This document shows positions 1 to 62,922 of a stretch of DNA of 64,000 bases, piece after piece (the first letter of the stretch is position 1; each line of letters starts with the position of its first letter). The translations under genes and the position numbers were made by a program. Source of the stretch: Amoebophrya sp. A120. Lineage: Eukaryota > Protista > Dinoflagellata. The notes under the pieces are model-generated. The model worked only from the letters and a program-made list of their open reading frames with translations, made no database searches and was not told where the DNA came from. The stretch lies in the NCBI GenBank assembly GCA_905178155.1, contig CAJINV010000004.1:1000629-1064628 (forward strand), written 5' to 3'.

Positions 1-3000
1 CGCCCTTGCTCCAATGAGACGTTCTCGTCTGGGTACAAAACCTTGTCGATCAGCTCCTGCGAAAAGGTATACTTGGAAGAACTCGTCGTCGACGCCGGAT
101 CCGCCACAGCCGCGAGCATTTGCGACGGCAACAGCTGCTGCAACTGCTTTTTCAACACGGGAGCGATCTTTTCAGGTGCTGGAGGGATGAACGGATTTTG
201 AGTGGCTGCATTTTTCGCGGTTGTTGACTTTGACGGTGTGCTAGTAGAGTCCGCGGCATTTTCAAGTGGAGACACTTCTCCTTCTTCAACCTCGTCGTAG
301 TTTTCTTCCACAACCGCGACGCTTCCCAACGCCGCGCTGCGACAACAGCGGATGATCGTCTTCGCTGCGATCCTGATCGGCATCTGGTAGTACTGGGCCA
401 GCTTGTAGACGCCGCTTTTTGAAGAAATAGCACCACCTCCAGTCGTACTACTCGTCCCTTTCGTGGCCGCTGCAGAAGTTGTGGTCCCTCCAGTGGTGGC
501 GCCAGGATTTGTTTTCCGGACTCCCTGAAGTTCGATTCGCGGCGCCATCTCGGTCTGCAGCAGGTTGGAAAACCAAATACCGAATGCAAAAATGTCTGGG
601 TCTGGAAGACAATGCAGGTTTGTCACGCTTGTCTGGCATGACTCTCAAATCTGTGATGCATCAGCAGGAAAAGAGCCTCTTGCCTGTCATGCAAAAACGC
701 AGCTTGTCATGCGAAAAACGAAACACACAACAGCACAAAAAACTTGTCATGCTGGGCTGCATATTGCAGTGCGCCGAGCCACCATTCGCAAACTAGCATC
801 ACAAGTTTCCAGACCCAGACACTTTTGCAATGCATACCAAAGCTGCAGCTGCAACGAGTACAGGCGTTGGCTTTCCACAATCCTCTGAAGATGGAGCTGA
901 TTATAATTTTCCTCTCGTTCAGTAGGCAGATGTTCATGTTCTGAAGCTGACATTTGTGCTGCCGTTAGAAATGCATCATTCAAAACGGCGTCGTCGTGTA
1001 TCCAGTCAAGAGGCGAAATGCCGACCACCTCCTGTCCGTTGTCCAGGTTGCAGCTGCTGCGCTCGGTTTTCTGCAAATCGTGTTCGGATAAAGACTGCAA
1101 CATAGTTTTCAAAAACAGTGCTTGTTGTGATTCAGATTCTAATCGATGCTCGACACCTACTTCGCTCTTCGTTCTTGTTGTACCCATGCCGTCCAGTAGT
1201 TGTTCTCCTGTCAAAGCAGTAGCTCGTGTAGTCGCGGCCCCAGCAGCACCTCCGTGCACAAAACGACCCAAGTGGTTCTTGCCACTACACCGTGCCCACA
1301 AAAAGTTTCCCGGCTTGAAGGTAAATGGCTGGACAGCGCTGAAAAAAGGACGTGGAGGTGGTTCGGAGGACTTATTGTTGCGGCCCTGTTCAAGACCTCC
1401 AGCAGGTCTATTTCGTTCTTTCTCGTCCTCTATTCTGTTTCTCTCCCCGACGCATGATCCCGACCCAGGCAGCAGCTGCAGGAGCTGCCCAATTCGTGAA
1501 GAAGATGTTGTTCCACGGCCGGCCAAATGCTGCATCATGCTGTGTCGGTGTTTCATCCTGCGGTCCATAGGCTGCATGATTTCCTGCAGTGGGAAGTAGC
1601 AGACGCAACACAAAGCCACGAGAAAGACCGGGAAGCTGAGTTGCACAAAGAGACTGGACTTCGTGCCGCGGAGGAACAGGTAGAGCCGGCGCTTGACGAG
1701 AGTTTTTAACAGCTTGAAGGTCCGCAAGTACCGCCGCAAGCGTGGGCTGCGAGTAAAAATCATCGTGAAAAAATTATTAGTGTTCCAGCAGGCAGAGATG
1801 AAATTAAATCGTGGCCACAACCTGCTACGGTGTCGCTGTTGGTGCTGACCATAGTCAATTATATCGGCAAGATTTCTTCCTCCAGCATCACGCTGCGAAG
1901 ATGAAGAAGTCCTCACAGTATGCTCCGTTCTTGTATGAAGATCGTCTTCAGCTTCCGCATCCGCCCGCATGGAGCCCGCCAAGTCGGCGACTGGAAGTTG
2001 TAGCTGCGCCGCAAAAGATTGAAGAGACGTCGCTGGAATCGTAGTCGTGACTCCTGGAGCTAAAATAGCGTTGCCTCTTCCGGCGCTAGAAGAAGCTCCT
2101 CCTGCCCCGCGAAGACCATCCTCTCCGTCTCTTGTGCACAGTTTCAAAAAGACCTGCTCCAAATTGCAGGTCTGCAGGCTGGCTGTTTTCAACACCAAAA
2201 ACCTCCGTGTCTTGGAAATCTGCTGTAGACTGTGCATGCCTTTCAGGATTTTTGCCACCAGGCCATTGTCAAAATTGAAAAACTGGACCGACATCTTATT
2301 GTTGGAAGTAGAACTCGTCCGGCTTGTTCCCCTTTGGTGTTTTTGCTTCTTGTTTCGATTATTTCCTGTCGCGGTTTCCATTTTCTCGGGCGATTTGTTT
2401 GGTGACGAAACGTCTACGTCACCGCCGGAACGACGAGTTTTGGTCGCAAACGACTCCTCGGAGTCTGCTTCAGCTTCCGTAATATCTCCACGAGGTGATC
2501 TTCTTGGCGATGATTCATCTGATGTATCATTTGTAGTCGTGGTGCTGCTTCGTTCTAGCAAGCGGTACAGGATCTCGATGGAGCTCGTCATCGTGATGTA
2601 GTCCTCTCCACTGGGAATTACTGGGTTCAAAGTCAAGCAATTTTTAGAGCTTTCGCTTATGTATCCACCACCGCGCGAAGCCCCCGAAGGCAAAGTCATA
2701 CCACGACCCCGCCGCGGCTCCGCCAACGCACCAACAACGAACTTCGGCCTTTTGCTTTTAGTACTTGACGTAGTTGACGCCGGTTCTTTGGCTGTACCTA
2801 GAACTTCATCTTCGACGCCTACGTGGTCCATTTCGCGCACGTCTTCTTGCTGCCTCACGACCCCTTCGAGCACCATGCTTCCGCTGCTGCTAGAGGATTC
2901 CAAAACCGGGGTCCCTCCCGGGTCATCGAAAGAAGTCTTCCGTCTTTCTTGGGTCGCCTTGGCTGAAGCGCAATGGCCTTCCGCGCTTTCATTCGGAAGA

Positions 3001-6000
3001 TCATGTTGACGAGGTTCAAACGGCCCCGCCGCATTGTTCATCTGTGAAGCGCTGTTAAAGCTGCTAGTGATGTCAACCACAACATTTGCATTTTTTTTTC
3101 GCGCCCGCAGCTTTGTGCAAGCGTACGTGATAGTGATCAACACGGTGTCCGCATCCACCTCCTTCACGACCCTCTCGAAAGAGTGCTGCAGTTTCCTTCT
3201 TGTATTCATATTGGCACGACACCCGGACGCGCCTGCTTTACTACCAGGAGCACCCGCTGCTCCCAGATGAATCCCGCTGCTCGTCGTTGTGGTCGTTGGG
3301 CTCTTGGTCGCTCTTCTGCTGGTTGCGGGCGACGAACTGCGGGAGGTAGAAGTCGCCGTGTTACTGCAACTATCCACGGACAGGAGAGACGACTTCCTCG
3401 ACGCCGCAGCTACAGAAGTTCTGACGCAGTTCCGAAACAACTGACTGGGCGGTAGATTTTCCGCCAGAGGCTCCGCTTCCTCCGCCGTTTCGAATAGGAG
3501 ATCCTCGTGCAGCTGCTCAACACGTCGACTACTTTCGTCGAATGAGGAGGAGGAACTCATGTTACCGTTTGATGCAGGAACTACATCAACGTCGGAAGCA
3601 GCGGCTCCTGCTGCTGGTCCCATCGTCGTAGTACCATCCGCATCTTGCGTGCCGTTCTTGTCGTCTGGTGATGATGGTGGAGGAGCTTCTCTACTTCTAG
3701 AACTACCACACATCAAGTGGGTTGGGGTCTCCCCGGTTGTCGCCGCGGCTAAAAGAGTGTCCATGTACAGTTTATTGTCAGGATCTACAACAACTTCTTT
3801 ATTCTCTGGCAATTGTTGTTCTCCTTGTAGTTCTCCACGAGCCTTATGTTGCGGGGACGACGACGCAGATGAACGATGCTCTCCTGGATGTCGTAAAAGT
3901 TGTGCAGGACCCCCTTCCAACTGCACCTCCGCTCCTGGGCTACAAAGTTCATCTTGTAGACCTCCTTCTACAACATGTTCATCATCTGCTGCTGCTTCTG
4001 CTTCTGCGGCTTCAAATTTTGCCATTTTCTTCTCCATTTCCTTCATCAGGGTGTACTTGTATCCACAAAAAAAGGCCCGCCACCCCCATCCAATTTGTCA
4101 TCGCAAAACATGCATAAACTCTAGTGTCGTGTGTCATGCGAAAAATTGATCATGGGGATGGGTGTTTTGTCCTGGATAACTTGACCGCGGACTCCACTAC
4201 TCGCTTTGTCTCGTTCAGAATCAAAAAGGGGTTCTGCCGCGGGAACTTTTTGTCTTCCTCGAACACGTACTCAAACGAATTTGTGAGCCCGTTCTGGTGG
4301 AAATCCTCCAAGTAAAGATCCACGATCTCCTGGTTGATGTTGATTATGCTTTTCGAAGAAGAAGAAGAAGAAGAAAAGGCCGTTTTATTTTTCGTGTAGT
4401 CCTTCGATGAGTGTTGCTGTTGACGGTCTTGTTCTTGCCCTTCTTTTGATTTTGTTTCATCCGATGTAGTGTTGTTAGTAAGACCTCCTTCTGCATCATC
4501 TTCACGGTCGCCCGCAGCTGAAAAAGAAGAGGAAGCTGCAACGTTGCCCACTGTCTGACTGAAAACAAAGGCAGCATCAGGCGCTGCTTTCTGAAGATCA
4601 GTACTAGCATGATCAGCTGCACCAGCCTCTGCCTCCACTCCACCCACTCTCTCATGCTGGTCGCCCGGGCTAGCGCTAAACTCGGATGCGATTTCAGACT
4701 CGGATGCGACTGGGGCGAGTAAGCAGGAGCGAGGGGAGGATCTATTTCTTGAGCCCCCGCCGTCGATTCGTGCAGCCTGCTCCGGTCCTCGCAGCATATG
4801 CATGCGTCAGGATCGAAATCGACAAAATGATCAAAAAACTTGTGATGCATAAAATCTAGGGCACTGAAGGCCTGTACTGGGGAGCAGGCCAATGAAAGCG
4901 ATTGCGCGCCTGTTTAGGGGTATGCGATGCGCTGCCAGAGTAGCACGACAGGAGCAATCTTCTTTGCCCAAACAGCATGACAGACTGGATTTTGGTGCTG
5001 CCGAAATTTGTCATGCGCCACCTGGAAACTGAGGCTCCGACCGCCATCGATTTTGTGCATCACAAATTTTGCGACTTTGTCGATTTTAATCCTGACACCC
5101 TCATATCGCAGCAATCGTTCGTAGTACGCGGAATTTTCCTCGTATTCCAGGACGAGCTCTATGGCGTTCTCAACTGTTACATTCTCAACTGTTACATGAA
5201 TTTGTAATGCAAGACTAGCGCAGGCGAGAGGGACAACCTTGCGCGTCTTGCATTACAGGTTTCGTGCAGATCATAGTGCTGCTACTTAGCCCTCCGAGAA
5301 TTTGTCATGCGCAGCAGCTCGATCGTCTGGTGAGTCATGGTCATTTTGCATGACAAATCATGTAACAGTTGAGAATGTAACGTTTGAGAACGGCATAAGC
5401 TCGTAACCGCAGTTATGCTGCCGCTTGAGGAAGTCCGCGCTCCCTTCGGCCTTCACCTCTCCCCCGAAGGACATAATCGCGATGTTGTCCCCAAGGGCCT
5501 CGGCCTCGTCAAGAAAGTGCGTCGTGAAGAAAATGGTCCGGTGTTCCTTCATTTTCCGCAGAAACTCCCAAAGTTGGCGCCGGGTGAACGGATCCAGCCC
5601 GCTGGAGGGCTCGTCCAACACCACAAAAACCGGGTCCCCGACGAAGGCCAATCCGATCGACAACCGGCGCTGCATATCCTGTGCAAAAGTATCGCACTCG
5701 AATTGCATGCATTACAAGTCTTGTTCTTAAGGTGAATCAGCATTACAACTGGAACGATAGAAGAAGTGTGTTCATGTTTTGTAATTACAAATTTTCTTTG
5801 CCATGCTGAGGAAATTTGTAATGCATTTATACGCGTACGATACTTTTGCAGTGCATACTGCATCCCGCCGGACAGATTTTTCACTAATGTGTGTCGCTTA
5901 TCCAGCAAATTCAGTTTCTGCAGCATGGTGGTGACGTACTTCCGTTCGCGGATTTTCCGCGCGCGAAGCTCCTCTGAACGCGAGGTCTTGACGTTCAGTG

Positions 6001-9000
6001 TCAAGGCGATCCAGGACAAATTATTGTCCTCGTGGTCCTGCTCTTCGTCCTCATTCTCGTCAGCCACTGCTTCCGGCTCTTGTTCCGCTGCAGATAGCAC
6101 GCGAGGAGCTGGTGTCGTGCCACGAGGATTTGCTGTTGATGTAGTCCGTTGGCCTATTTGTTCTTCTACTGCATTAATGTTCATCTCGCGTGAAGACGCA
6201 ACATGTTGTACTCGATGTGGAACTGCATCTGCCGCGTCTGCAACTACATCATCATGATCTCCAAATAAACTACTATCCTCTCCATCCCGAACAGCATGAT
6301 CTCGGTCCTCCAAAATCTCATCTTCGTCGGCCTCTTCTGACGAGGCTGGAATTTCGAAATTACGCAGTTTCATGAACAGCAAGAAGTGTTCTTCCACGGT
6401 TAAGTACTCGTACAACGCGTTCTCCTGCGGACAAAACCCGATCATCTGCTTCCGCCTCCCCTCCTCAACTGTGTGCCCGTAGATCCGCACGTAAGACCCC
6501 GGAAGAATAAGACCACCTCGTCCACCAAGTGATGAAGAAGTAGCGGCTGATGTAGTAGTTCCGGCGGTCGCAGCGCCTCGTCTACCCCGGCGGGGTCCGC
6601 TCCGTGTAGTCCTAGTCCTCGCAGGGGCCGGGGCAGAAGTAGATATTCTCGTACTACTTGCGGCACTGTAGTCCTCACTTGTTCTCCTATATTGAAGATC
6701 AGAAGTAGGAGAAGAGCGATGCTGCTGCGGTTCTAGTTCTGGCTCCTCTGCTTCGTCCGAGGAAACTGATTCTATTTCGTCCCTCGCTGGTGTCGCAGCG
6801 TCCTCGTTGTCGTACTGTCTCAAATGCCCGGTCAAAACCTTCATGCAGGTACTCTTCCCCGCACCGTTGGGGCCGAGCAGGCAGAAAATTTGGTTACGCT
6901 GCATCCTCAGATTCGTGCCCGCGGAAAGAGCGTAAAAGGCGTCGCCGAATTTCACGCGCAGATTTTCCACAACCACCGCAGGCTGGTGTAGTTGGTGTTG
7001 GGCGAGGGGGTCAATGTCGTCGTCGTGCAACATTTCTACTTCAGAAGCGGCTTCGAAATCATGTGGCTCAGCGTGGTCGACGTCCCCACCGTCTGCCACA
7101 GCTTCCTCTGTTTGGCCCGGCGGATTATTATAGTGACTTCTCTGCGCACCACCAGCCCCGGTCGTCCACCTTCGTGAGGAAAAAGAAGTACTAACTGCGC
7201 CACCACCACGCTCGGAACGTCTACCGCGTCTCCTGGTCGTTGGAACCAGTAGCCCAGTCGTTCTGCTCCTAGAACTTCTTCTACTCCGACGTCGACGCTC
7301 ACGCTGTGTCACCTCCCAACAAAACTGCAGCAAGGCCACCAGGCACCGCAAAACGGGCTTCAGACAGCGCTTGAGCAGCAGATTCGGAACAAAACGGCAG
7401 ATCCGCGTGGTCCACCGCCGGTTTGGGGCTGGGCGTCGGGTGATTCTGTTCCGTGAAGCTGAGGAAAAATCACCTTCGACTTCTTCGTCTTCGTCCAAGA
7501 AAGCTTGGGAACTACCGCGCATCGCCGAGGATCCCATGGATGTTCTTGTTCCCGATAATGTGCTAGAAGTAGCACCATGATGTTCTTCTGAGGCTAACCC
7601 ATTGTTGCCATTGCGTCGTGCTGTCCGGCAGAAACACAGCAAGTTGACGCAGTACCAGAAGCGCCTCGCCAAATCCTGCTTCGCCTTAACCAGAGTAAAG
7701 GACGTGGAGTCCACTAAATACCAAACCGCGAGCAGCAAGACCAACGACTTCAGCAGGGGAGTAAGTGGGTCCTGGTTCATCGGCGATCGGCTGCACGGGT
7801 AGCCGAAGGAGTTGAGAGTAGTCTCGAGCAAGAAACTCATGTAGGCTTCGTGAAATGCCCGGACCGGGAGCGTGAGCAGCAAAAGAAAGCTCCGTTCTAC
7901 GGTGAGGATGAAAGAATAGAAAGGGGACGTCGACGTTGTCCCGTCTTGGGCAACATTCAGCTGAAATAAACCATAGTACCCAGCTGCAGCAGTGCTGCTG
8001 CTGGCTGCCGCTCCTCCGTTGTTGTCTGCAGTCCCGATACCCCCTTGCCAGAAGTACACCTGCAGTGCGTGCCAGAGGAAAGGGACCCCGAAGAGAATGC
8101 AGCTTGCCGTCGACGCAGTGGCGGGCTTGGAGAAGAAGCTGCTCCAAATGTATAACAGTGCACAACTCCCCCTCTCCCTCGTTTGTCATGCAAAATCCCA
8201 AATCCACCCGCTACCTTGTGGCACTCTTTGCATGACAGATTCTTGGAGCCCAATAAACAGTACTACACTAGGCACATGAATTGAATTTGTCATGCAGAGG
8301 CCCCACGCGTGCTGGTGTTTGTGTTGCTGTTCATGCCATACAAACGAGGGGGAGTGGGAGTTGTGGTGCACTCTCATAAAATGTGCGCAAAAACCATTAC
8401 CGTGGCGGAAAAGAAGAACGAAGAGGAAAACAGCTGTGCTACGACGGCGAGATTCTGGAGGAAAATCGAGGACCCACTACTAGGTGGTGCCACGAACAAG
8501 ACCCAGCCGAGCGCGACGGCAGTGCTGAAGCAGAAACAGCTGATACAGATCAAAGCGATGCTGTGCAGGAAAAAGGACAAATCCGAAACCCCGATGGTGC
8601 GCATGGTTTCTCGCATTTGCTTTTCGACGATCTGTCCGTTCACCGTCAGGAAAAAGGGGATGAAAAGCGGAAGGAGGTTGATATCCACAAAAAAACAACC
8701 ATGATCCCCATCCAATTTGTCATGCAAAACATATATGAAGTCCTGTGTTTGTCATGCAGAAAATGGATATAAGATGGTCATGGTTGTTTTTTCCTGGAAG
8801 ATAGATCACACAGAGGAAGCCCAGCTCCACTTCCTTCTCGAGCTTGTAGGGATTCACGTACAGGGAACGCAGGGAATTATCAAATGTAAAAATGTCTGGG
8901 TCTGGAAAAATCCAACTTGTCATGCTAAATCTGAATCATGTAAAAATCTGTGTTGCATGATTACCAAAAGCTCCCCACTTTTGACCTAATCGAGAGGCAG

Positions 9001-10579: not shown

Positions 10580-11615
10580 ATTTTGATCTGTCGCGTTTCC
10601 CCGCGGCCCATACAGACTTGCACTTCCACGTAGTTCATGAAATAACCTGATTCAGCAGGTCGTCAAAGGACAAAAAATGACGACCCATAAATCAACTACT
10701 AGTACTTACTACACTTCTGACCCCTGTTGATACAGTAAGTAGCCATAATGATGTTCTGCGCAGAGGCTGAACATTAGACGGAGCAAGATGGAAATGCTAA
10801 TATTCGCTAAATAAAATGTCATCAATCAGAAGCGAGCTACCGGTGAATGATGTACTTTTGGCAGTAAGAATTATGGAGCTAGGTGTGAGTTGACCACTTG
10901 AAACAAGAAATTGATGTTGCCAGGTGGCATCAAAAGATCCACATGATCTTTCGAGGCCATAAAGAACGAGAATAAAGTCACAAACTTTCCAACGACCATC
11001 ACCATGTAGTTCTTCATCAAGCGAGAGCCCGTGGCTGACAACTTCTTTAAAGCAGAAGAAAACAACACCGAGATTTATCTTGAAGATCGTAGCGTGATTA
11101 AGATTATGCATGGTCTCGTGAATAAAGAACCAATGTGTCGTATCTGATGATCTAGTACAAGAACCGCCTGCATCAACACGAAGATCTTGTTCCACAAGTA
11201 GCTTCTCCTCTTTCATCTGTCATCGTGACCCCAAGCAGGAGATCCTGGATTTTTCTGGAAAGCAGGCACAACAACGGACATCAATTACACGGGAACAAAT
11301 CGCAAATAACAAGAAGACACGACGTAGAACGGTGTGAAGACTATGAGAATGAGTAGACTGTTTTTTATTTCGTGAGCGTGACGTCGTCTTGTCGTCCTGC
11401 TGCAACCACCCTGCGGCTTTCCGCAAGGAAGCTGCCGATCTTCCTCCTCGTGGGTTTTTTGTTCTCGTGCAAAGCGAATGGTTCTGTGGCTCGAAGCGGA
11501 AACATGTTAAGTAATCCTCATGCTTCGTCAGGAAACGACGAGGTTAATACCCGACGAAATGTTATGATATGACTATGAGACTATGTTATTATCATGTGAA
11601 AACTCGTTAGCTTGG

Positions 11616-16380: not shown

Positions 16381-17286
16381 TTTTCACTCTTGTCAACAAG
16401 ACACGACTATTTGACTTCTAAAAAACATTTCCGATTTACTTTTGTCCGCCTCTAGAACTTCTCCTGGAACAAATGCCTGATGGATCACTCAGTAGCAGAG
16501 GCAGAGAAGTAACTAGGGTGAAGTTGGATGTGTGACAACAGTAAATCAGGAAAAAAAAAACTTCTATTTTCAATTTGACTCAATTATACAATTACTGCGT
16601 TGGAAGTGTACCGATTTGATGGTTGAGCAGTATTTTCGCCAAATCGCCACTCCTTCCGCAAGTACCAATTTTCTTTTTCTCAATTTGACTCTGTTTGCGA
16701 CGACATTTGACTTTGATTCTGATTTCATTGTGACAAAAAAGCCCGATGTTGATCATCGTTTTCACTTTTTTCTGAAGAACTTTTTTCTTACTTTTTGACA
16801 CGCTCTTAGGAGTTGAAACTTTCTCTTCAGCTTGGCAAGAAAATCTAAGTATTCAACCAGTGCGACGCTTTCAATATAAAAGTAAAAAAACAAAAAAAAT
16901 CCGCGCGAGCTCCCTTTTTTTCGTTTTTCAACCTGTTTTAATAGCCTTCTGATGGGTTGCAAGACCGAGGCGCGAACAAGCAGATTATCTCGATAAGACT
17001 TTCAAAAAATAAATAAAAAATCCCCGCTGTCGTTCTGTTTGATGCGAACTTCTGTCAATAACAATATCAACTGCGCTGAGTGCGTTGCCAATGACTAGGT
17101 TCATCATTTCATCGTGACTAAGGCGTGTTCATAGGCGAAGTGGCGAAGCATGTTGGGTAGAGAGGCTACTGATCAACTAGAAGACCACTCGTGACGATCA
17201 TCTGCAGATACATAAATACAGAGAGATTTTAATATTGTGTCGTGACAACAAAACTTAAACTTTGCGAGAAAAACCCATTGAACAAG

Positions 17287-17515
17287 ATGACTACTACATC
17301 AATCACCTCGGTCTCGCCCCCCATTCGCCGCACGGAGATGCCGTTTCTTCTGCCGAAGCCGACCCGGATTTTTCTCCTGGCGTTTTTCTGCTACGTGCAG
17401 CTGCTTTGCTCTATGGTGCTGAACGGGTTCTTCACAATCGTCAAGCAGGTTGCAGCGTTCTACGGGGTGTCCGTTCAGCTCGTGAATCTTATGGGGACGA
17501 TTGTGTATCTCTATC
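17287..17515 (+). pseudogene. Orphan N-terminal fragment of an MFS (FLVCR/SLC49-like) transporter
   Basis: RIFLLAFFCYVQLLCSMVLNGFFTIVKQVAAFYGVSVQLVNLMGTIVY resembles TM1-TM2 of FLVCR-type MFS; no continuation visible before the repeat array. Confidence 0.55.
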
Positions 17516-17629
17516 GACCGCAAACATGTCTTCAGTGTGGGAACAGACCATTGCACTGCTGCATAGACAGGGTGCGGATTTTAGAGTTTGTTCCATGTCG
17601 TGCATTCGCGCGGATTGTTTCTGTTCGAG

Positions 17630-51500: not shown

Positions 51501-54500
51501 TGCTGAAGACTGACTTTATTCTCTGTCATAGAGTGCGACGGAACGAGGAGCTGCAGCTTCTGCTTTTTGTTCCTGGTCTTCATATGGTCGTTATTTGGGT
51601 CGTTTGCGTTATTTCCATTTTGGGTTTGCCTGATGGTAGTACCAGCATTGTTCCTGTTCTTGCTTTTACTCGACGCCGGCCCTTTCTGTTTGTTTCGGGC
51701 AACAGGACCACGTTCTTGCACGCCGACCATATTTTTCTCCTCCTCTCCCGCCCTCGGTTTGATTTCCTTCATCAAACTAAAAGTATTGTCCCAGGGCGGC
51801 CGGTCCGTGATGCGGTTGGCCGTGATCGCCGAGAAGGCCTTTTTCATCGGCTTTCCTCCGGAAGATGTTGGATCAAAATCATCACCGTGGTCGTGGTCCT
51901 CACCAGCTGCGCTAGAATTATCCGCCTCCAGCCGCCACCTCGCATCAAGCACTGTCCGCTTTTTCTGATTCGCGAGCCGCGTTTCCAAGGGCAGCTTCGA
52001 GGGGGAGTATGAATTGCAAATAAAGTAACGCTGTACTAGTATAAATTGCAATACAAATTGGCTCAGCATTACAAATTGAATTTGTCATGCGGATTTGCCT
52101 TAGGAACTAGATTTGTCATGCATAAATGCAAAAATTAGTACGAGTACGATACTTTTGCACATGATAGGGAGGACTCCTTGCGGATGTCCGGCGTGTCCAG
52201 CGGCGAGGGCTGAAAGTGGGAAAACAGGTTCTGGAAGTTCCAGTCCGGAGGGCGGGGCGTGGTAGGGGAGATTTCTAATTCTAGGTGTTTAGTGTTTATT
52301 TCGTCATGCTGTAGCTGGCCCCTCTTGCTTATTCCCGGCGGCGACGGGGGAAGTGAGGGAGACCTGGAAGGTGACCGAGAACGAGACTTCGCCTCCACAA
52401 GCGTCGCGACTCTCAGGAGCTGGTGGTCCCACGTGTTTGGCTGTTAGTGTCATCAGTTTTGGAAATTTCAAGTCTCATCTACGAGATGGTGAACTTCTTC
52501 GTCGAAACATGATCATCATCACGATCCAAGAATTGTACTTCTGACAGACTCTGCATACATCAACATCCCTTAGAAGATTCCTCTAGACCCTCTTGTTATG
52601 TTTAGATGTAGAAAGCAGCTGAGTGCTATCCGTTGTACGTACCTCCTCTCCTCCAGCTTCCGCACTTTCCAATTTTCTTGCCGCTAGCGAATCGCGCCGC
52701 GCCGGCGCCTTACTGGATGAAGATGATGAAAAACTCGGCCCGGCTGGAACGGTGCTCGCTGATGTAGTAGGCGGTTTCTGCGTGCTAGCAGTGCTCTGGT
52801 GACCACTTTTCGGTAGTTTCGCCGACTGCGGTCGCGTAGAAGATGTAGTAGCTCCACTACTCTTTGTTCCTCCACCTCCACGCCTTTCAAACACTTCCTG
52901 GGACCTGCGCCGCATCTCCAACAGGCGCTCCTCTTCGCTCTGTTTCCTGGTACTAATCCTGATCGTGGTCGCTTCTTGCTCTGCATCATTTGCACCCTCT
53001 TGCTCTTGTTCCGTATCATCATCAAACACTTTTCGCACGGATTTTCTCCTCTCCTGCACCGTTTCGTGGTGCTGTTCAATATCCTGCGCAAAGGTAAAAG
53101 TATCGCACCCGTAGAAGTACTTGCAATCGAATCATGCATGACGAGTCTAACTTTGTGCCCGATCTAGCACGACAAATTGCGTTTTTTTGTTCTAGCAACA
53201 ATTTATGCTAAATGCAACTCATACTCGTACTAGTACTACCACTAAGTGCGATACTTCTTTTGCAAAAATGCATATTCCATCTGCGCGTAAAGTTTCCGTG
53301 CGTTGTCCAAGACACCTTCCAACTCCTCTCTCGTCTCGTCATCCAGTTCGATCTTCTTCCCAAGCGCCTTGCACCGCTCCAGCAGACTGTGTATCACCGG
53401 CGGGTCAGAGCGTTGCGGCTTAAACTCGGAATCGGACTCCTCGGGTGGGGCGGGTCGTTCTTTTTGTTGATCCCGATCCGTAGGAGGTTCTTGCTGCTCG
53501 TGCACCACTGGAGCTGCATCAGCAGCAATCTCAACAGCTGGAACGTGCTGGCTCACTTCTTGCGAAACAGGTCCTTGCTCGTCCATGATTTCCATGGCAG
53601 CTTCTTCCTGCGGTCCTACAGCACCAACTTCTACCTCGGAAGCTCCTGCTGCTCCACGCGGCTCCTCCTGGTCTTCTTCCTCCGCAGCTTCGTGATGACC
53701 GGCACCGCCTGCTTCCGGTGTCTGCGGTTCATTTTCATCAAGATTCATCTCGTCCGCCCCCTCAGCAGTTACTGGCACAGGCCGCTCCTCTTCAGGGCTG
53801 ACGACGTCTTTTTGCACGTTGTACAAATCTTCTGCGTTTTTGCCACCGCCTTTATTTATTTCCGCAGCCCCATGATCCGTCGGGGAGGCGAAGGGCAGGT
53901 CCTTCAGCGTTTTACTGGCTTGCCCTAGATCATCAACAACTCCGCTGCTGGAGTATGTTTTGTCATCGTTCTTGTCGTTGACATCGTCGCGGCTTTTGCT
54001 GTTCATCTCTACTTCCAAACTAATTTCTCCTCCTTCTCCATCTCCATTTCCTCTACCTCCATCATGTCCTTGCTCCTCCGTCACCACGCTGATCGACTTG
54101 GAAGCTGCAAGCTGATCCTGCTCTGAACCACTGTAGTTTTTGTTCTCTTCCTGTTTGTTGTTCTCGTCCTGATTTATTGTTCTCACCGCCAGCGAAGCCG
54201 CCACGTCATACAGAATGCCGTTGACGAAAGAGGAGGAGATCGCGTCTTCGGCGTTTATTGGGTTTTGTACTCCTGCATCAAGAGGTCGTTGATCTTTGCT
54301 TGCTGTTTCCACTTTTTGATTTCGATTAGCTTCAGCTTCATGTTCATCACCAGCCGCATCACTTGTTCCGTGAAGATCCATCCCTCCCGCATCGACATCA
54401 TCTTGATCTTCTTGCTTTCGTTCGTCCGCCTCTCCTGCCTGGTAGAAAGTGAACGGATGTGAATGATGTGAATGTTTCAGCGTAGTGCGCACTAATGGAT

Positions 54501-57500
54501 CTTGCGAAGGATCTACGACCTCGTCGTCGACCACTTCAGAAGATGTGGGCTGTCGCTGCCCCTGTAAAGATTCTGCACCGACAGGGAGAACCTCGCGCTG
54601 CGTAATTTCCATGTTCATTTCCACTTCCACAACTCCATTGTGCGAACTGGAAGTGCAGCTTTCCTCAAACAATTGCTCCTCCTCCCCCGCAAACCCCTCC
54701 TCATGCGGCGACGCCAAGCGCGTCCCGGCCGACGCAGACGTGAAGTCGTCTTCCGCCGCCGTGTTGTGCACTTCAAGCTCGTTGTTGGTCTCGTTTAACA
54801 GATTATTGTCGTCTAGTTCTTCATCCTCAATTGTTTCTTGACCTGCAACTACCGCAGCAGCGTCCACAAGATTGGAGAGAAGACTACTGCCGCTTGATGT
54901 ATTGGAATTGCCACGCTGTCGGTTGTGCAGATGAGCTTCTTCTTCATCGCATTGTACTAGTGTTCTTGCCCGTGCACCACGACCGTGGCTGTCGTCTAGT
55001 CTCTCGTCTTGATGCGCATTGATACTAGACGCACTTGCCTCCTGCTGTCTCATCAAATTGTAATTCGCGGCGGAGCTGGCTGTGGCACTGCTGCTCTCTT
55101 CATCCCCGAGTACTGCGCCGTTGTCACTACCTGAGTCAGCGGCCTCCACTCCATCTACCTCGTCCTGCGGCAGTGGCGGCGTCCGGGGAGTGGAGAATGT
55201 ACTGGTAGCAGGATGAAAACCCTCATATCTGGAGTCCGTGCCGGGAGCAACAATTCCTTCTACTCTAGTAGGATTATTATCATCCGCCGGCGTGCTGGTC
55301 TGCGACAGAACGACTTCTCTGCTGCCATCATGATTCTCGTCCACGACCTCGCAGCTCGACCCGCCCAACAGCGACTCGTTGGCGGTGCCCGAATGGGAGT
55401 GCGAATTACTGTCCACATTCGCGGAGCCCGTGTGCGAGTGGGTAGCGCCGAGGAGGCGCGCGTTGGAGCTGGAATTGTGTAGCGAAGAATTGTCGGAGGA
55501 CGCTACCCGGAAGGAGGAAGAGCTCGAGGAAGAAGAGTTACTGCTCTTCACCCCCTCGCTTTCTCCACTTTTACTCAACTGTTCTTCTTCTACATTATCG
55601 CGTCCTCCTCCAGGCGCGCCTCCATCTGCGCCTGCCTCCGAGAATGAACTTTGACTTTCTTCGCAAGAGGAATTTACCTTCGACATCGACGCTAGAAAAT
55701 GCTGGCCTTCCCGACAGTCATTTACCTGGTGGCGGACCATCCAGTCGTATGCAAGAAAAAAACTGTGTAAGTGTAACTCCGTGTTGCAGACGTTGCAATA
55801 CAGTTACACTTGTCATGCTGGATGTGCATCAGAGCCTATTTTCATGCGTGTTTTCGCGTACCAGCTACGCATGACAGGTTTTCTCTGTCATGCAAAACAA
55901 ATCTGTGATGCTGTTCCTGCAAGAAAGTTACACTTACACACTTTTTTCCTTGGATAAGTCGCGGCTGGGCACTATTACCACCTCGTCGAACCCCTGGGGC
56001 GCTCTGTACACAACCGTGCAGGTATCAAATGCAAAAATGTCTGGGTCTGGAAGATTCTGAGACTTGTCATGCATGTTTTGCATTGGCCAGCATGTCTGTG
56101 ATGCATGCCCTAGCATCACAGATTTTTTGAAGGCTTCGCGATGCCTATTCCGCATGACAAATGGAAATGCCCTCTCCGCGTAGCAAAAATTGCATTCCCT
56201 TTGCTGCTCATGCAATACAGATTTTTTTGGAATCCAAATTCAGCATCACAAGTTGCATTCTTCCAGACCCAGACATTTCTACCTTTGATAGCAGGATTTT
56301 TTCAGCAACTCTTTCTCGAACCTAGGGATCGGGACCGAGAGTTCGGGCTTGTTTTCTCGATCTTTTGACGTCGCGGATTTATTGTTCCTGCCGCCCTCTT
56401 TTGACTTCTTCTTTGTCACTGCCGAGGTGGTGTTGGCTCTCTGCAACGTCGAGGACCCGCTTCTTTGACGATTTGCAGCTACTACCTCTGCATCGGAGGA
56501 GGAAGAGTTTTTATTTATTCCATCAGTCGCATGGGTTGCAGCTCCAAGGGTTTTCGATCTCCGAACCGGTCTGGAGGTAGATGCTGCTGCATGATCCACG
56601 GGATGAAGTAAATCTTCCGGACAGGAGCCCCCGCCGGCCCCGCTTTGCTCCGCGGAATAAACAAGCTCCTGGCCAGCAGCAGAGTTTTTGCTCTGCTGTG
56701 TAGCAGCTTCTGAAGTAGAGGTTGGCTGAGACGAAGAGGACGAAGATTCCATTTCGGACGAAGACTGGTCTTCGCTTCTCGCGTCTTCACCCCGCCCATC
56801 GATTATGGTATAATGATCTACACCGCCAGCACGACGAGCTGCCGTTCTTGTTCCCCCCTGTTTAGAAGGCAGCTTCACATGACTCAGAAACCGGTCCACT
56901 TCGCTCTCGTCGCGGTAATGCTTCAGCAACCCAAGTTCCAGCCCGCTGGCATACTTCGGGTGCCCGGCGTTCGCGGAGGCGAGAAAGCTGCTGGAGGACG
57001 ACTTTATCACGCCGGGCAAAAGCCGAGTGGATGCGCCGGTTCCTGCGGCAGTTACAGAAGAACTCCCGTTCATCTGCAAGAACGTCGGTCCAGCCGGCTG
57101 ATATCAAGTGCAAAAATGTCTGGGTCTGGAAGAATGCATGTTTGTCATGCTCGTCTGGCATGTCTTTAAATCTGTCATGCACGTTACCCAAGAGAGCCAT
57201 TTTTCTGTGGTGCAGGAACGCAGTTTGTCATGCAGAATAGACAACACCTAGAAGCTCAGAAACTTGTCATGCTGAGCCAGCAGCATTTGTGGCCTCATCA
57301 TGAGACGCCACCCAGCATCACAAGTTTCCAGACCCAGACATTTTTACATTTGATAGCTGATGCTGGTCGACGATAACTTTCTTCCGCAATTCCAGGCTGT
57401 TCCCTGCAGCGAGTATCGATTCGTCGTAGACAATGTGGTCTTTGTCCCCGTCTGGGCTGTTGAGAACCACCTGGATACCCCGCGGAGACATCTCAGAACA

Positions 57501-60500
57501 GATCGCTCCTGGTTGGTTCGAACGAGAACAACCGAGCAAGTTGCTATGATTTAGAGCTTTAACACCCGTTAGCATGAGAAGTGGCGAGTTTGTAGTGAAT
57601 TTTGCATGACAAATAGCAGAGGAGACTGCCGGGACATTGTCCCTTTTGCTCTTCTGGGAAGTGGGTTCTGCACACCGCAGAAGTTGTCCAGGCTTATGCG
57701 GCGGGCAGCTGGACATGGCCTGGGCGTCATTCTTTGGCCATGTCTTTTCGTCTTCCTGTGCTTGCAAAAGAGCAAGCACTGCAGCAGCCGCGGCAAAGAC
57801 GCCAAAAACAAGAGCCGCGAAGCACATAAGTGCAGTTTAGGCAAGATGAGGGCGCGGAAGCAAAGGTGAAAGGACCCGGCCGAGAGCTTTGACGCGTCTA
57901 TCCGGCAGGCGCGTGAACTCTCCAGGCCTTATCGGCAGAATATAGAGGCGCTAAGGGCAACAGCGGGCGCCTGTCTTTTCCCCTCGGCCCCACTTCCCAG
58001 GGTCTACTTGTGCGTTTTTTTGAGCACTTTTCTGCGCTAAACTTTGCTTATCACGGTCGAAAAGTGGCGCTCGGTGAATTTTGGGGTGAATTTTGGAAAG
58101 GACGCCGGTGAATTTTGTCCTCCGGCTCTTGTTCAAAATGCGCTGGCGCATGAGAAACTCCGGGTTTTGGGGCTTCCAGAAAGTGTCGCAAAAACAAAAA
58201 GCCTTAAAATTCACCAAGGGAATTCTTGGCCTGGGGGTCACGTCGAATAAGACTTGCTCCGGAGGCAAAAAACACCTGGGGAGTTGTAAGCCGAGCACAG
58301 CAGGCGAAGCAAACTAGTGCCCGCGGCCGAGTCGTGCCTTCCCTTCCACCCGAGGCTACTCCCAGATATCCAATTCCAAACCACAACTCGCGAGAGCGTG
58401 CGCGTTGTACTCGTGCCCCTGTGTTCAGGCGTCGCCCTCCCTTTCGACCATTTCGGAGAGGAACTTCTGAGGTGAGCGCGCAGATGAACAAGAGCCCCAC
58501 GATCCACCTTCTTTGGTTATGCACTACACGGTCCGGCGGGCCCCGTAAGACCGCTTCTTTCGGTGCTGCAAGTGCCACCTGGCACCGAGCAGCCCTTCAC
58601 GCTGCGTGAGCTGCTTGGGATCGTGTCCAGCCCTTTACCACGCAGCGCACTTCTCTTTTGAAGTAAATGCAAGTCATGCAAGACAAATTCACTGCAAATT
58701 CACCCCTCTTATGCTAACGAGCGTCCAAGGCATAAGTTATGATCTTTTCCGTGATGGGTAGAAGTTTTCTTCAATTTTTTCCGGAACTTCCGCTCTTCCT
58801 TTTGCTGCTGGCGGATCTCGCGCGCCGCCTTCCGTCGTTCTTGATTGTAGGCCGAGGAAGACCCGCCGGAATCGTCTTCTAGTGTCGCGCATCAAATGCA
58901 AATATGTCTGGGTCTGGAAGGGTGTAAACTTGTCATGCAGATTTTCATTTTCCATGACCCATGAGGTCAGGAATGCGGAATTTAGCATAACAGACTCTGC
59001 GAGGTGGTCTCTGCCACTGCCATGCCTATCCTGCATGAGAAGCTCCCTCCCAACTTGGTCGAAAGTGGAAAGCTACTTTTGGCACTCATGCAACACAGAT
59101 TTTTGTATGCTTCAGATTTACCATGACAAGTTACCACCTTCCCGACCCAGACATATTTGCAATGCATATCGCGTCGGCAGAAAAGAGGTACTTGAACGAA
59201 ACCGCGTACTCTGTTTTGTTCTCTTCGTTTTCGTTCTCTTCGTTGCTGCTTCCGTGGTAGTTATATGCATTGCAAATATGATGTCTGCATCTGGAACTTG
59301 TGATGCAAGGAAGGGAATAATGAGCACGCTGTAATGCGCTGCCCAGCATGACAAGTTCTTCCGTGGTTCTGGGTTGCGTCATCATCATCATCATCATGTA
59401 GTGGACACTCGCTCCCAGCGCCACAGGTCAAGGATCCCCTCCCCGGGGGGTGGGCGAGGAAGCACTTTCGGCGACCTCAACATACAAAAGCCGAGCGCTA
59501 CCACGGCAAGTCGCCCCAATACAAGTGCCAACCAGTCGGGAGCTACCCACCACACCTGATCAGCACAGCCCGGCCAGCTAGCCGAGCGCGACAGCCCAAC
59601 ATACAGAACGATCCAGGACCCGACCCATTTTACGCCATAAGTTTTTGTTCTCACGGAAGAGACGACGTACCCCTTTGGGCTAAGGGGCGAGACTCTCCCT
59701 TAAGCCGCAACCCCACCCGGACAGGGGAGGCTGGACCATTTGTGCCTTACCTGCGGCACGGACGAAAAAGGCAAGTGCCGCGGACCACAGATGTCAAACC
59801 ATTGGCCAGTTGTTTGTCACTGCTGACTGGCAACCCACCTGGGGCACAGTGACAACTTAAAGGTTTAGTTTGTGCGTGGCAGTCTTAGTGCAACTACTTG
59901 ACTTATTCTGCAACAGAAGCAAAGGGGGAGAGGGGGGGCGGGGGTCTTACGCCAGAGTCGCGACGGGACTTACCTGAACGTAGGGTGCCTGGCAATCCCC
60001 TACTAACCCCATAACCCTTGCGCGCCCGTAACTTCGTCTTCGTCAGCACCGCGGCCAGGAATTTCGACACACCATTTCCAGCATGGCGGCCGCCGTTTGT
60101 ACGAAGTCCCACACGCAACTCCGTGGCCAGAAAGTCCGATACGAATCTTTCACGCCATGTCCATGGCGGCGGTAAGACTGCGCGTCGTGCCTGGTTAGCT
60201 CGTGATAGTCGTGCTGGAGTTGCTCGTGGTAGTCGTGCTGGTGTGCTGCAGTTGCTCGTGGTAGTCGTGCTGGTGTGCTGCAGTTGCTCGTGGTAGTCGT
60301 GCTGGTTAGCGTGACAGCAACTTGAGTGTACTACATAGCGCGGTAGTTCCGAGTCTGGTCGTCGTCGGTGTCCGCACGTTGTTGCCGTTCCTCCGAGTAA
60401 AAGCATGGTCATCTCGATTCGATGGCTGGCACTCCTGATAGTGCTGCTTGACGAGGCCTTGTACAAACGCCGCACCTCCGTGTAGGACACGAGCAGCAAC

Positions 60501-62922
60501 AGAACATACGGCGCTCCGAATGGACCAACAAGTACTACATTTGACCGAGAAGAAAAAGCGCGTCCGTCGCGTAACTTGAACGGCATTTCCGAGCGGAGAG
60601 AACGCGCTCCGAGAACACACCGAGAGCGACATGCGCATCAACCAGTCTCCCGGTACAGACTGCTTATCGATTATCCGGGTAGAGAACACTCTTCAACAAT
60701 CCTCGTCCTGGGTTGGCGCGAGGACGGACAGCACGTGGCGAGAGCCGCGCGCCGCCCTTCCTCCATCTTTATTCCGCTTTTGCATGAGAAACTGCGTTTT
60801 TGCATGACAGGCAAAAGGGGCCCTTCGCGGCCACGCAATACAGAGTCCAACGTCATACCAGACTAGCATGACAAAATTCGAAATCTTCCTGACCCAGACA
60901 TATTTGCAGTTGATAAGTTATCGTGTTGAGGTACTACTACACCAATTTTTCCCCCCGAGGAACTACTGGAGGACTTCGTTCGCTGGTGATTCATCGCTCC
61001 TACGGAGAACGAATCCGGCTCCTGTTCGGCCAAGGCAAATCCACCTGCTAGTGGTGATTTTTGCCCGCTACAACTCTTCGGACTTTGACTGCGTTCCCGG
61101 ATCTTGTGGAATTTTTCCGCGGATTTTGACACTGCCATAGCGAGTTTGATTTCCGCCATGATGTCCTTTTCTCGCCCCTCTTTTACCTCTCTCAAAAGCA
61201 TCTCCGCCATCTCCGGATCCTCTTCCGTATTGAAATCCGGGTACGCGTGACGCAGCATGCGGAGCGACTCGAGTTCTGCCAGGCGCTCCTTTTTCTTTTG
61301 CTCCGCTTCTTTTCTCCTCTTTTCCTCCTCGAGTTCTCTCACTTTTTCCTCGATCCTTTGCTCCACTTTCACCAACTGCTCTTCCAATAACCGCATCTGC
61401 CCTTCCAAGACTCTCGTCTCTTCCCCCTCTTTCTGCTGCGTATTCGCCTCCAGCAAAATGGCGGCTTTTTCCTTCTCGGAAACCAAAGTGCGCGGATCCT
61501 GGGAGTGCAGCGTGTTGGTCTTCTTGCCCCCTGCTGGTAGATCTTCCTGATCTCCAGAAGATTTGTTCTTATTCCCGTGCTATCAAACGTAAAAATGTCT
61601 GGGTCTGGAAGAATGCATGTTTGTCATGCTTGTCGGGCATGACCATTAAATCTGTCATGCACGTCGCCCAAGAGCCGCATTTTTCTGTCATGCGGAGACG
61701 CAATTTGTCATGCAGAATAGGCAACACCTACAAGCTCAGAAATTTGTCATGCTGAGCCAGCACTTGTAGCCTCCTCATGCTACGCTACTCAGCATCACGA
61801 GTTTCCAGACCCAGACATTTTTACGGTTGATACGTGCCCTTTCTGCGGAGAAAAGTAGAACTCGGAAAGGCGTTTCGCTTCGCGACCGGGGGAAAAAGAT
61901 TTGAAAAGCTGCTGGTTTAGCTCGTTGCTCGGATTTTTTGCAGGTTCACTCTTCTTGCTGGACAATAGTTGCGACTGCTGGTGCTGGAGCTGCAACTGCC
62001 GCTGCAATACGTCGAGTTGTGCTGCTTGCTGCTGCTCTACAACTTCCTTCACTGACACTGTGCTACTTCCCTTACAGCTGTTCGCTCTCGTCCTTCTTGT
62101 TACAGGTGACACGCTAGAGCTCGGCCTCTGCGGAAGTAGAGCATCTACTTCAGCCGGCTCCTTATTCCTCCTACTAAACGGCGACGGCGGATATTGGTCA
62201 ATGTTGTCCATTTGCCGCTGAATCTCCTGAATTCGCTGCTGCCGTCTGGAGTCAGTGATATCCACAATTTGCAGCGCTTGGTTCATTATGTTCGTCCCAT
62301 TGGACGTGGAGCCGTTGTTTGTGGTTGCAGCGGCCATGTTGCTTCCGTTTGAACCAGCAGCACCCGCCCTCGACTTACTCGCATTTTTCTGCAAAATAGC
62401 AGCTCCTGCAGCGGAGGAACTGCTACCCTTGCTGCCATTTCTGCTCTTAGAGGGAGGGTTCCTCGTCGCGGAGCTTCCTCTTCCGGCTGCTGCACCGGTC
62501 GTCGTCGTTCCGTTGTTCATCTTCGAGCTCGATCTACTCCTTACAACCGCTCCCGCAGACGCCGGGCGCTGCTTCATTTTCGCTCCGGCAAGGAGCGAAG
62601 ATCCTCGGTCTTTCGCGCTCTCCTCCCAGGTTCTGGCCAGTTTCTCCGGACTTGGGTTGAACGGCGGGAGTCGGACCTGTTCATTGCCTTGCTGCGCAGG
62701 TTGTACGGCACCCCCCGACGGATCTGCTTTGTTGGCCTTTTTCCCCAAATGGATCTGCCCGCCGGACGAAGTCGGCACCCTCGGCCCGGCGGATCGCGGA
62801 CGGAACTTTTTCACATTCTGCTGCAGCACATTCGCCTGCCACTCTGCCTCCGCCTGTCTCTTTTTCCCGGCCAGCCAAATCTCGTGGTCGCACGCCACGT
62901 CCCACGCCGTGCGGGCCGGCAT
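48515..62922 (-). CDS. Giant (~2,900 aa) low-complexity protein with repeated RPxSA motifs, function unknown
   Basis: Frame traced from MPARTAWDVAC (62922) to PDVFWDFR* (48515) through 13 TIR elements and one inferred GT-AG intron (~52441-52588). It could instead be two genes split at 52583. Confidence 0.7.
48734..48968. mobile_element. Introner-like TIR element, family B
   Basis: Direct repeat gcgtc. Confidence 0.93.
49314..49545. mobile_element. Introner-like TIR element, family B
   Basis: Flanks agcgg/atcgg. Confidence 0.88.
50416..50679. mobile_element. Introner-like TIR element, family A
   Basis: Direct repeat cccag. Confidence 0.92.
50721..50962. mobile_element. Introner-like TIR element, family B
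   Basis: Direct repeat cggat; only 41 bp separate it from the previous element. Confidence 0.92.
52008..52166. mobile_element. Introner-like TIR element, family C (reverse orientation)
   Basis: Direct repeat gggag; removal gives KESS|PSKLP. Confidence 0.85.
53080..53274. mobile_element. Introner-like TIR element, family C (degenerate)
   Basis: Flanks ttcaa/ttcca; removal gives QME|QHHET. Confidence 0.82.
55748..55956. mobile_element. Introner-like TIR element, family H
   Basis: TIR aaaaaactgtgtaagtgtaact / agttacacttacacactttttt; direct repeat agtcg; removal gives PSRD|WMVRH. Confidence 0.9.
56023..56290. mobile_element. Introner-like TIR element, family A
   Basis: Direct repeat gcagg; interior resembles 50416-50679. 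Confidence 0.92.
57102..57355. mobile_element. Introner-like TIR element, family A
   Basis: Direct repeat gctga; interior resembles 61581-61832 and 578-836. Confidence 0.92.
57545..58734. mobile_element. Long (~1.19 kb) degenerate TIR element acting as an intron-like insertion
   Basis: cgttagcatgagaagtggcgagtttgtagtgaattttgcatgac is inverted as gtcatgcaagacaaattcactgcaaattcacccctcttatgctaacg; flanking exons join GKDHN|LLGCS; exact ends uncertain. Confidence 0.7.
58890..59168. mobile_element. Introner-like TIR element, family A (A2, reverse orientation)
   Basis: Direct repeat tcgcg; left end is CAT instead of TAT; interior is the reverse complement of the 30438-30698 type. Confidence 0.9.
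59363..60756. mobile_element. Nested insertion of unknown class (possibly a non-autonomous retroelement)
   Basis: Flanked by cttcc (59358-59362, 60757-60761); (cat)n tract near the left end; no TIR seen. Confidence 0.6.
60199..60305. repeat. Minisatellite (~33-bp unit gttgctcgtggtagtcgtgctggtgtgctgca)
   Basis: 3-4 copies visible directly. Confidence 0.85.
61581..61832. mobile_element. Introner-like TIR element, family A
   Basis: Direct repeat cgtgc; removal gives KGH|GNKNK. Confidence 0.92.

What the first reader, a model, noticed from the sequence alone, without database searches (positions are those of the whole stretch)
578..61832. One excision grammar across 32 insertions: [5-bp direct repeat]-TAT...TIR...ATA-[5-bp direct repeat], no GT-AG
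Seen: 32 elements from at least 8 families with different TIRs interrupt six genes. Nearly all start with TAT(G/C), end with (C/G)ATA, and lie between 5-bp direct repeats. Removing the element plus one repeat restores the frame, even inside the ABC signature, so the genes look functional. Established: non-canonical introns with IR/DR structure (introners) are reported in Amoebophrya. Inference: termini shared by unrelated families point to one mobilising and removal machinery. TAT ends with a 5-bp TSD do not match any DNA-transposon superfamily I recognise.
Basis: partly seen in the sequence, partly recalled or inferred. Interest (0 to 1): 0.85.

Follow-up and report, generated by a model that had tools for sequence, protein, structure and literature searches.

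The report
Transposon introns removed without GT-AG
These are already-published jumping-gene introns of the algal parasite Amoebophrya: RNA contigs show three of them removed together with exactly five extra bases and without the usual GT-AG signals, likely by a second splicing system that measures from the element's own ends.

Summary
In detail: 32 TAT…ATA inverted-repeat elements in six minus-strand genes. Only removal of element plus 5 nt restores the frames. RNA-like contigs skip three elements plus 5 nt, and a GT-AG intron, in one transcript; DNA contigs keep them. In loci from a near-identical strain, 258 of 356 elements have an exact 5-bp repeat. The object is published: Farhat 2021 (PMC7789003) gives A120 introners with TAT ends and 3-5 nt repeats; Gozashti 2025 lists one family as '5-bp TSD, TA/TA termini'. 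TA..TA ends match IS3EU/GingerRoot (6-bp TSD), so the claim that no superfamily fits is overstated. Not found in print in my searches: the repeat is 5 bp across families; the upstream copy stays in the mRNA (three junctions); all larger families lie in both orientations; GT-AG registers occur at chance rate (15 of 267, 13.9 expected); families share an internal 9-mer; neither a perfect repeat nor a strong hairpin is needed. Best reading: MITEs removed by an end-anchored ruler, as in Euglena. No transposase or splicing enzyme was found.

The parts
578..836 (.). element, family A, TAC variant at left end, exact 5-bp repeat; ABCA gene
4060..4178 (.). element, family D; ABCA gene
4797..5105 (.). 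element, family E, flanked by an 8-bp repeat; ABCA gene
5160..5397 (.). element, family C; ABCA gene
5675..5857 (.). element, family B-type ends, inside the ABC signature motif
8151..8378 (.). element, family F; ABCA gene
8682..8803 (.). element, family D, repeat with 2 mismatches; ABCA gene
8878..9139 (.). element, family A; ABCA gene
1..10579 (-). host gene 1: ABCA-type transporter, runs off the left end; 2939 open codons after removal of 8 elements
11919..12098 (-). element 11924-12098 (family B) plus the left 5 nt, skipped in RNA-like contigs; repeat degenerate (3 of 5), upstream copy kept
12245..12463 (-). element 12250-12463 plus 5 nt, skipped in RNA-like contigs, kept in a DNA contig; poor hairpin
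12728..12970 (-). canonical GT-AG intron skipped in the same contigs (marks them as spliced RNA)
13230..13369 (-). element 13235-13369 (family B) plus 5 nt, skipped in RNA-like contigs
15189..16313 (.). 1125-bp element, exact repeat, no protein of recognisable kind seen; not spanned by RNA contigs laid
11340..16390 (-). host gene 2, unknown function, 951 open codons after splicing; expressed in X8/X9
21938..22220 (.). element with family F-like ends and decayed repeat (1 of 5); near the end of a Cys-rich gene
29352..29509 (.). element, family B-type ends; host gene 4
30438..30698 (.). element, family A; host gene 4
31142..31384 (.). element, family A, opposite orientation to 30438; host gene 4
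32034..32269 (.). element, family C, one repeat mismatch; host gene 4
33277..33427 (.). element, family B, one repeat mismatch; host gene 4
34433..34710 (.). element, family A, one repeat mismatch; host gene 4
44703..44930 (.). element, family C; host gene 5 (1450 open codons after removal)
48734..48968 (.). element, family C; host gene 6
49314..49545 (.). element, family C, one repeat mismatch; host gene 6
50416..50679 (.). element, family A; host gene 6
50721..50962 (.). element, family C; host gene 6
52008..52166 (.). element, family B, weak hairpin; host gene 6
53080..53274 (.). element with family B-like ends, one repeat mismatch; host gene 6
55748..55956 (.). element, family G; host gene 6
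56023..56290 (.). element, family A; host gene 6
57102..57355 (.). element, family A; host gene 6
57545..58741 (.). probable 33rd element (TAT..ATG, decayed repeat); frame fits element+5 nt, but an inner end at 58734 with 0, 3 or 6 nt fits too: unresolved
58890..59168 (.). element, family A, CAT variant at left end; host gene 6
59264..60915 (.). 1652-bp composite element with family A-type ends and nested foreign DNA; host gene 6
61581..61832 (.). element, family A; host gene 6

Best explanation
These insertions are short inverted-repeat elements with TAT…ATA ends and a 5-base flanking repeat; RNA-like contigs show three of them removed with exactly five extra bases and no GT-AG, and they are likely non-autonomous DNA transposons that a second, end-anchored RNA splicing system likely cuts out. 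Insertion (inferred): an integrase-type DDE transposase of the IS3EU/GingerRoot/Ginger neighbourhood binds the shared ends and the internal TTGT[CG]ATGC repeats and integrates with a 5-nt stagger, in either orientation and at any sequence. Removal (shown for 3 junctions, inferred for the rest): element plus 5 nt leaves the pre-mRNA. Geometry (shown at one RNA junction, supported by orthologues at two more): the upstream repeat copy stays exonic, so the 5' cut lies at or one base before the first U and the 3' cut 5 or 4 nt past the last A. Because both ends carry the same signal in inverted form, both orientations work. The ruler cancels the target duplication, which makes coding-region insertions nearly neutral. 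Catalyst (inferred): a pathway separate from GT-AG splicing, as proposed for Euglena nonconventional introns.
For: RNA-like contigs of X8 and X9 (one sample) skip 11919-12098, 12245-12463, 13230-13369 and a GT-AG intron with no other letters; DNA contig X3 record 8 runs through 12250-12463. At 11924 the copies differ at positions 2 and 4 and the RNA keeps the upstream copy. In L043 the upstream copies give K (33 of 118 homologues, including the three closest; H not among the seven commonest residues) and G (116 of 118; E 1). Exact 5-bp repeat in 258 of 356 elements found without a repeat filter, one mismatch in 48; exact repeats of 3, 4, 6, 7, 8 or 9 bp in at most 5. The nine families with 8 or more members lie 59:69, 16:14, 11:6, 6:8, 6:5, 6:5, 5:4, 4:4, 5:3 relative to the transcript (267 of 355 with strand assigned). 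No base bias in the repeat; GT-AG in any register 15 of 267, 13.9±3.3 expected. No branch-like polarity of the internal motif (234 vs 213). Changes of the first T: 6 at intron 3' ends, 0 at 5' ends among 19 variant-end elements with confident strand (p 0.02-0.03, post hoc), so removal looks polar. Introns at conserved positions stay 98.6% canonical (PMC7789003), so the ordinary pathway has not relaxed. Euglena precedent: N3CDG…CH'G-N5-6 code (PMC12501133).
Against: No transposase, endonuclease or ligase was found; no genome was available and no long element with such an ORF appeared in about 0.7 Mb. Farhat found no transposase in A120. Only 3 junctions have RNA support, from assembled contigs of one sample guessed to be RNA; contigs hide minor forms. 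In the -1 register the donor reads N-U-A, like the GTA of most canonical introns seen here, and U1 was not found in A120/A25 but is present in the canonical-intron strain Kv, which fits a changed spliceosome as well. The probable element 57545-58741 would have CAT at its 5' end, against the first-T rule. Raw RNA reads of X5 and X7 hold element sequence joined to flanks from outside the window, so some copies are retained in RNA. TSD is 5 bp, not the 6 bp usual for IS3EU/GingerRoot.
Confidence: 0.52

Rival explanations
1. Same elements and same ruler, but the catalyst is the host's U1-less U2-type spliceosome: it reads N|UA as donor (cut one base before TAT) and picks the acceptor by distance from the ATA end.
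For: Most canonical introns seen here start GTA; first T constrained only at 5' ends; the RNA junction at 11924 allows this register; U1 not found in A120/A25, present in Kv; A25 ends start TTA, also N-T-A; Fritillaria precedent and the review's reading (PMC11282704).
Against: No enrichment of G at +1 or AG at the end; no branch-like motif polarity, CTRAY 16 vs 21 mirror; old introns remain canonical; U12 snRNAs absent and TATCCTT 0 of 267.
Confidence: 0.36
2. The junctions are made by slipping between the direct repeats: reverse-transcriptase template switching across hairpins (an artefact, recalled) or a repeat-guided recombination-like event.
For: 27 of 30 short elements fold better than shuffles (z -2 or lower); 23 of 32 have exact repeats; mismatches lean to third codon positions, 44 of 72.
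Against: Two of the three RNA-verified elements fold no better than shuffles and one has a 3-of-5 repeat; six genes keep long frames that need the removal; the third-position excess does not pass the one-copy-free null (p 0.09).
Confidence: 0.05
3. The elements are excised from DNA during development, like ciliate IESs (recalled), and the RNA comes from rearranged genes.
For: Symmetric ends and a strand-symmetric internal motif suit a DNA enzyme; element+5 nt is the exact reverse of integration.
Against: DNA contigs keep the elements and show no precise skips among the joints listed (15 rows shown per call); the 5'/3' polarity follows the transcript; no separate germline nucleus is known in this parasite (recalled).
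Confidence: 0.04
4. The genes are broken, or are spliced at cryptic GT-AG sites near the element ends.
For: 15 of 267 elements have a GT-AG register; the ABC gene had no RNA cover in the runs laid.
Against: The three RNA junctions have no GT-AG register; the 15 match chance; frames are intact.
Confidence: 0.02

Closest known systems
Amoebophrya A120 introner elements (Farhat et al. 2021, PMC7789003)
   Same: TAT + 7 nt + AAA ends, direct repeats (5 bp in Fig. S19 legend), about 240 nt, many families, RNA-supported, no GT-AG. A gene beside the same families in L043 is about 99% identical to a protein named A120. These are the same elements.
   Different: The paper gives repeats of 3-5 nt and an unknown border. 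Here the repeat is 5 bp, the upstream copy is exonic, both orientations occur and a 9-mer is shared. Its figures could not be seen.
A120 introner family 38 (Gozashti et al. 2025, PMC12130899)
   Same: TIR element, '5-bp TSD, TA/TA Termini', integrase-like ORF homology, labelled Ginger in the dataset.
   Different: Noted for one 810-bp family; in the 38 of 58 A120 rows read, other families have automated TSD calls of 2-6 or none and are read as co-opting splice sites.
IS3EU/GingerRoot DNA transposons (PMC10045372, PMC6839031, PMC12730594)
   Same: TA..TA termini (TAYGG..CCRTA in one group), TIRs, no target sequence preference; TAC variant ends occur here too.
   Different: 6-bp TSD, not 5; no transposase found here; not reported as introns in the passages read.
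Euglena nonconventional introns (PMC12501133, PMC11282704)
   Same: MITE-like origin, TSD-like repeats, no GT-AG, complementary end triplets with fixed spacers to the junctions, coexisting with GT-AG introns.
   Different: Code N3CDG…CH'G-N5-6|R against N0-1 TAT…ATA-N4-5 with no purine rule; unrelated lineage; circular products not tested here.
Fritillaria non-canonical introns and Physarum U12 introners (PMC11282704 section 6)
   Same: Transposon-derived introns with TIR and TSD, handled by a changed spliceosome.
   Different: They keep specific terminal dinucleotides or U12 signals; here the junction bases are random.

Membership tests
A120 introner elements | IR starts TAT, 7 variable nt, then 3 or more A | tested here: met
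   A at positions 11-13 in 81-91% of 380 elements
A120 introner elements | direct repeat of 3-5 nt at the borders | tested here: met
   5 bp exact in 258 of 356
A120 introner elements | removed from RNA at non-canonical sites | tested here: met
   3 of 3 elements inside the spliced contigs
A120 introner elements | repeated families, genome-wide | tested here: met
   28,590 DNA contigs laid on 20 kb, with loose ends at element termini; 34 clusters among 267
IS3EU/GingerRoot | TA..TA termini with TIRs | tested here: met
IS3EU/GingerRoot | 6-bp TSD | tested here: not met
   exact 6-bp repeat in 0 of 356
IS3EU/GingerRoot | integrase-related DDE transposase in an autonomous copy | tested here: inconclusive
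Ginger1/Ginger2 | TG..CA termini | tested here: not met
   TAT..ATA; definition
Ginger1/Ginger2 | 4- or 5-bp TSD (Ginger2) | tested here: met
   5 bp; definition
U2-type GT-AG intron | GT/GC donor and AG acceptor in some register | tested here: not met
   GT-AG 15, GY-AG 20 of 267, chance level; none at the 3 RNA junctions
U2-type GT-AG intron | branch point and lariat | not testable with these tools
   no motif polarity; lariats need RNA experiments
U12-type intron | RTATCCTT donor and CCTTAAC branch (recalled consensus) | tested here: not met
   TATCCTT 0 and CTTAAC 0 of 267; minor snRNAs reported absent
Euglena nonconventional intron | CAG/CTG code with N3 and N5-6 spacers | tested here: not met
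   ends are TAT/ATA with spacers 0-1 and 4-5; works alike, not a member
Euglena nonconventional intron | excised as full-length circles | not testable with these tools
   no raw reads covered the host genes

The most novel reading that the evidence does not exclude
Amoebophrya A120 has a second, spliceosome-independent pre-mRNA splicing machine, possibly derived from the transposase, that reads the TAT/ATA ends and removes element plus exactly 5 nt in either orientation. It would undo at RNA level every insertion of an undescribed TA..TA, 5-bp-TSD integrase-type transposon superfamily, and would be an independent origin of the Euglena-type code.
Probability: 0.35. Interest if true: 0.88.

Novelty: already known. 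Interest (0 to 1): 0.47.

Why it matters
The elements are published, but how tens of thousands of non-GT-AG introns are removed in Amoebophrya is still open, and Farhat et al. left the border undefined. The window and related loci sharpen it into a testable code: fixed 5-bp duplication, upstream copy kept, either orientation, no junction sequence, no need for a perfect repeat or strong hairpin. Degenerate repeats are natural markers that existing RNA-seq can read to tell a cut at TAT from a spliceosome-like cut one base earlier. If the pathway is non-spliceosomal it would be a second origin of such splicing and a sequence-independent, scarless intron.

Tried and rejected
Run search: no RNA holder listed. 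Raw RNA reads X5-X7 laid on 44001-64000 did not cover the host genes. X3 and X4 behaved as low-depth DNA; X8 and X9 did not cover the ABC gene. Viral contigs had 0 matches to the family A end. Two protein searches with ABC exons did not return an annotated protein of this gene, so the 8-bp repeat at 4797 and the mismatch at 8682 stay untested. No stop codon told the registers apart in degenerate repeats. The idea that both repeat copies are under coding constraint looked possible in 98 elements (21 of 30 third positions) but was not significant in 267 (44 of 72, p 0.09): dropped. The internal motif as branch point: no polarity, dropped. U12 membership rejected. 27346-27538 (weak TIR, near a gene end) was left out as probably chance. 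88 of 355 elements had no strand call and were left out of orientation counts; 1 of 29 window calls (8682) had the wrong strand. 33 of 356 with 3 or more repeat mismatches were dropped. Pfam named only the ABC and 2OG-Fe(II) exons among 18; PDB gave nothing for gene 4. Three look-ups in earlier findings returned nothing.

Full report
Observation. An unbiased scan for terminal inverted repeats found that 18 of 39 pairs with an exact 5-bp flanking repeat read TAT..ATA, with no such class at other repeat lengths. Twenty shuffled windows gave 5 elements and none with the repeat, against 24 and 16. Removing each element plus 5 nt gives one frame of 2939 codons in the ABC gene, with the signature intact; other amounts give at most 1246. 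Six further segments behave the same way. A probable 33rd element lies at 57545-58741.

RNA. Contigs of X8 and X9 (one sample, RNA by the tool's guess) cover only the gene at 11.3-14.5 kb of the 14.5 kb laid, with no other letters, and skip four pieces: 180, 219 and 140 nt, each an element plus 5, and a 243-nt GT-AG intron. A DNA contig of X3 runs through the 12250 element. None of the three element junctions has a GT-AG register. At 11924 the two repeat copies differ at positions 2 and 4, and the contigs keep the upstream copy. The intron therefore starts at TAT or one base earlier and ends 5 or 4 nt after ATA. Raw reads X5-X7 did not cover host genes in 44-64 kb, but some held element sequence joined to other flanks, so not every copy is always removed.

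Beyond the window. No genome was held. A pattern from one family's end fetched 168 overlapping loci, 645 kb; this over-represents that family. One gene there is about 99% identical to a protein named Amoebophrya sp. A120. Of 285 TIR pairs with an exact 5-bp repeat, 255 are TAT..ATA. Of 356 TAT..ATA elements found without a repeat filter, 258 have an exact 5-bp repeat and 48 one mismatch; an exact 6-bp repeat occurs in none. Strand and frame could be assigned for 267 of 355 elements. All nine families with 8 or more members lie in both orientations in about equal numbers. The repeat has no base bias, and GT-AG registers occur in 15, with 13.9 expected. At two degenerate junctions in L043 the upstream copy gives the residue found in orthologues: K in the three closest, and G in 116 of 118. 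The motif TTGT[CG]ATGC occurs in 300 of 355 elements; in the window 54 times in 10.8 kb of elements and once in the other 53.2 kb. It shows no strand polarity, which suits a DNA-binding site better than a branch point. 27 of 30 short window elements fold well, but two of the three RNA-verified ones do not. Among 25 elements with a variant end, 19 had a confident strand: the first T was changed 6 times at 3' ends and never at 5' ends. This is post hoc and small, and 57545-58741 may be a counter-example. No long element with a transposase-like frame appeared.

Mechanism. Shown: the anatomy, the frame rule, and removal of element plus 5 nt at three junctions. Inferred: non-autonomous transposons moved by an integrase-type DDE enzyme with a 5-nt stagger. 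Inferred: removal from pre-mRNA by a ruler anchored on the element ends, which works in both orientations because the ends are symmetric, and which cancels the duplication. I put the catalyst at 0.52 for a pathway separate from GT-AG splicing (no trace of G or AG preference, no branch polarity, old introns still canonical, Euglena precedent) and 0.36 for a U1-less spliceosome reading N|UA (canonical donors here are mostly GTA, first-T polarity, U1 not found). Template switching, DNA excision and cryptic sites share the rest.

Known work, and what I saw of it. PMC7789003: abstract, sections 10, 11, 12, 16, 32, passages and supplement legends. It reports TAT-starting IRs, 3-5 nt repeats, 29,850 elements in 1954 families, no transposase in A120, no U1, and an unknown border; its figures S19-S25 could not be seen and may show more. 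PMC12130899: passages, and 38 of 58 A120 rows of one dataset; two supplement files were not searched. Family 38 is listed with '5-bp TSD, TA/TA Termini'. PMC10045372, PMC12730594, PMC6839031: passages on IS3EU/GingerRoot, TA..TA ends and 6-bp TSD. PMC12005148: passages. PMC11282704: section 6 and passages. PMC12501133: abstract and discussion. The U12 consensus, ciliate IES and template-switching points are recalled. I did not find the universal 5 bp, the kept upstream copy, the two orientations or the shared 9-mer in searches or text look-ups; most subscription journals are not searched.

Verdict. Real and already known as A120 introners. Not a member of IS3EU/GingerRoot (TSD fails), of GT-AG or U12 introns, or of Euglena introns, though it works like the last. 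The added rules make the open question of the splicing mechanism testable with existing RNA-seq. Interest 0.47.

Noticed in passing
window 4797-5105: Flanked by an 8-bp repeat rather than 5; a ruler would add one codon, repeat guidance would not. A natural test case.
   Followed up: partly
window 59380-59570 and L035 8364-8551: The same 188-bp piece (96% alike) with a (CAT)n run is nested inside two different introners; looks like the tail of a non-LTR element.
   Followed up: partly
window 17631-21446: About three tandem copies of a 1.2-1.3 kb unit, each starting with a sequence also repeated in the coding start of gene 2 (15046-15115, 16271-16370).
   Followed up: no
window 39000-40850: GC-rich stretch (about 60%) with long overlapping open frames on both strands and no Pfam match; possibly another mobile element.
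   Followed up: partly
window 27500-35400 (minus): Host gene 4 has motifs recalled as typical of pentameric ligand-gated ion channels; Pfam and PDB gave no match for the exons tried.
   Followed up: partly
window 37367-38812 (minus): Single-exon 2OG-Fe(II) oxygenase (prolyl hydroxylase-like) without elements.
   Followed up: no
window 41300-41940 (minus): Small RRM and zinc-knuckle (SR-like, by recalled motifs) gene; its canonical intron holds the only copy of the internal 9-mer outside elements (41536), perhaps a decayed element.
   Followed up: no
L019 390-15818: 20 elements in 16 kb, over twice the window's density.
   Followed up: no
window 12728-12970, L043 introns: Canonical introns mostly start GTA and have A-rich 3' ends without a pyrimidine tract.
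   Followed up: partly
all loci: Phase of the cut after the upstream repeat is uneven: 125, 84 and 58 of 267; unexplained, may reflect target choice or frame-calling bias.
   Followed up: no
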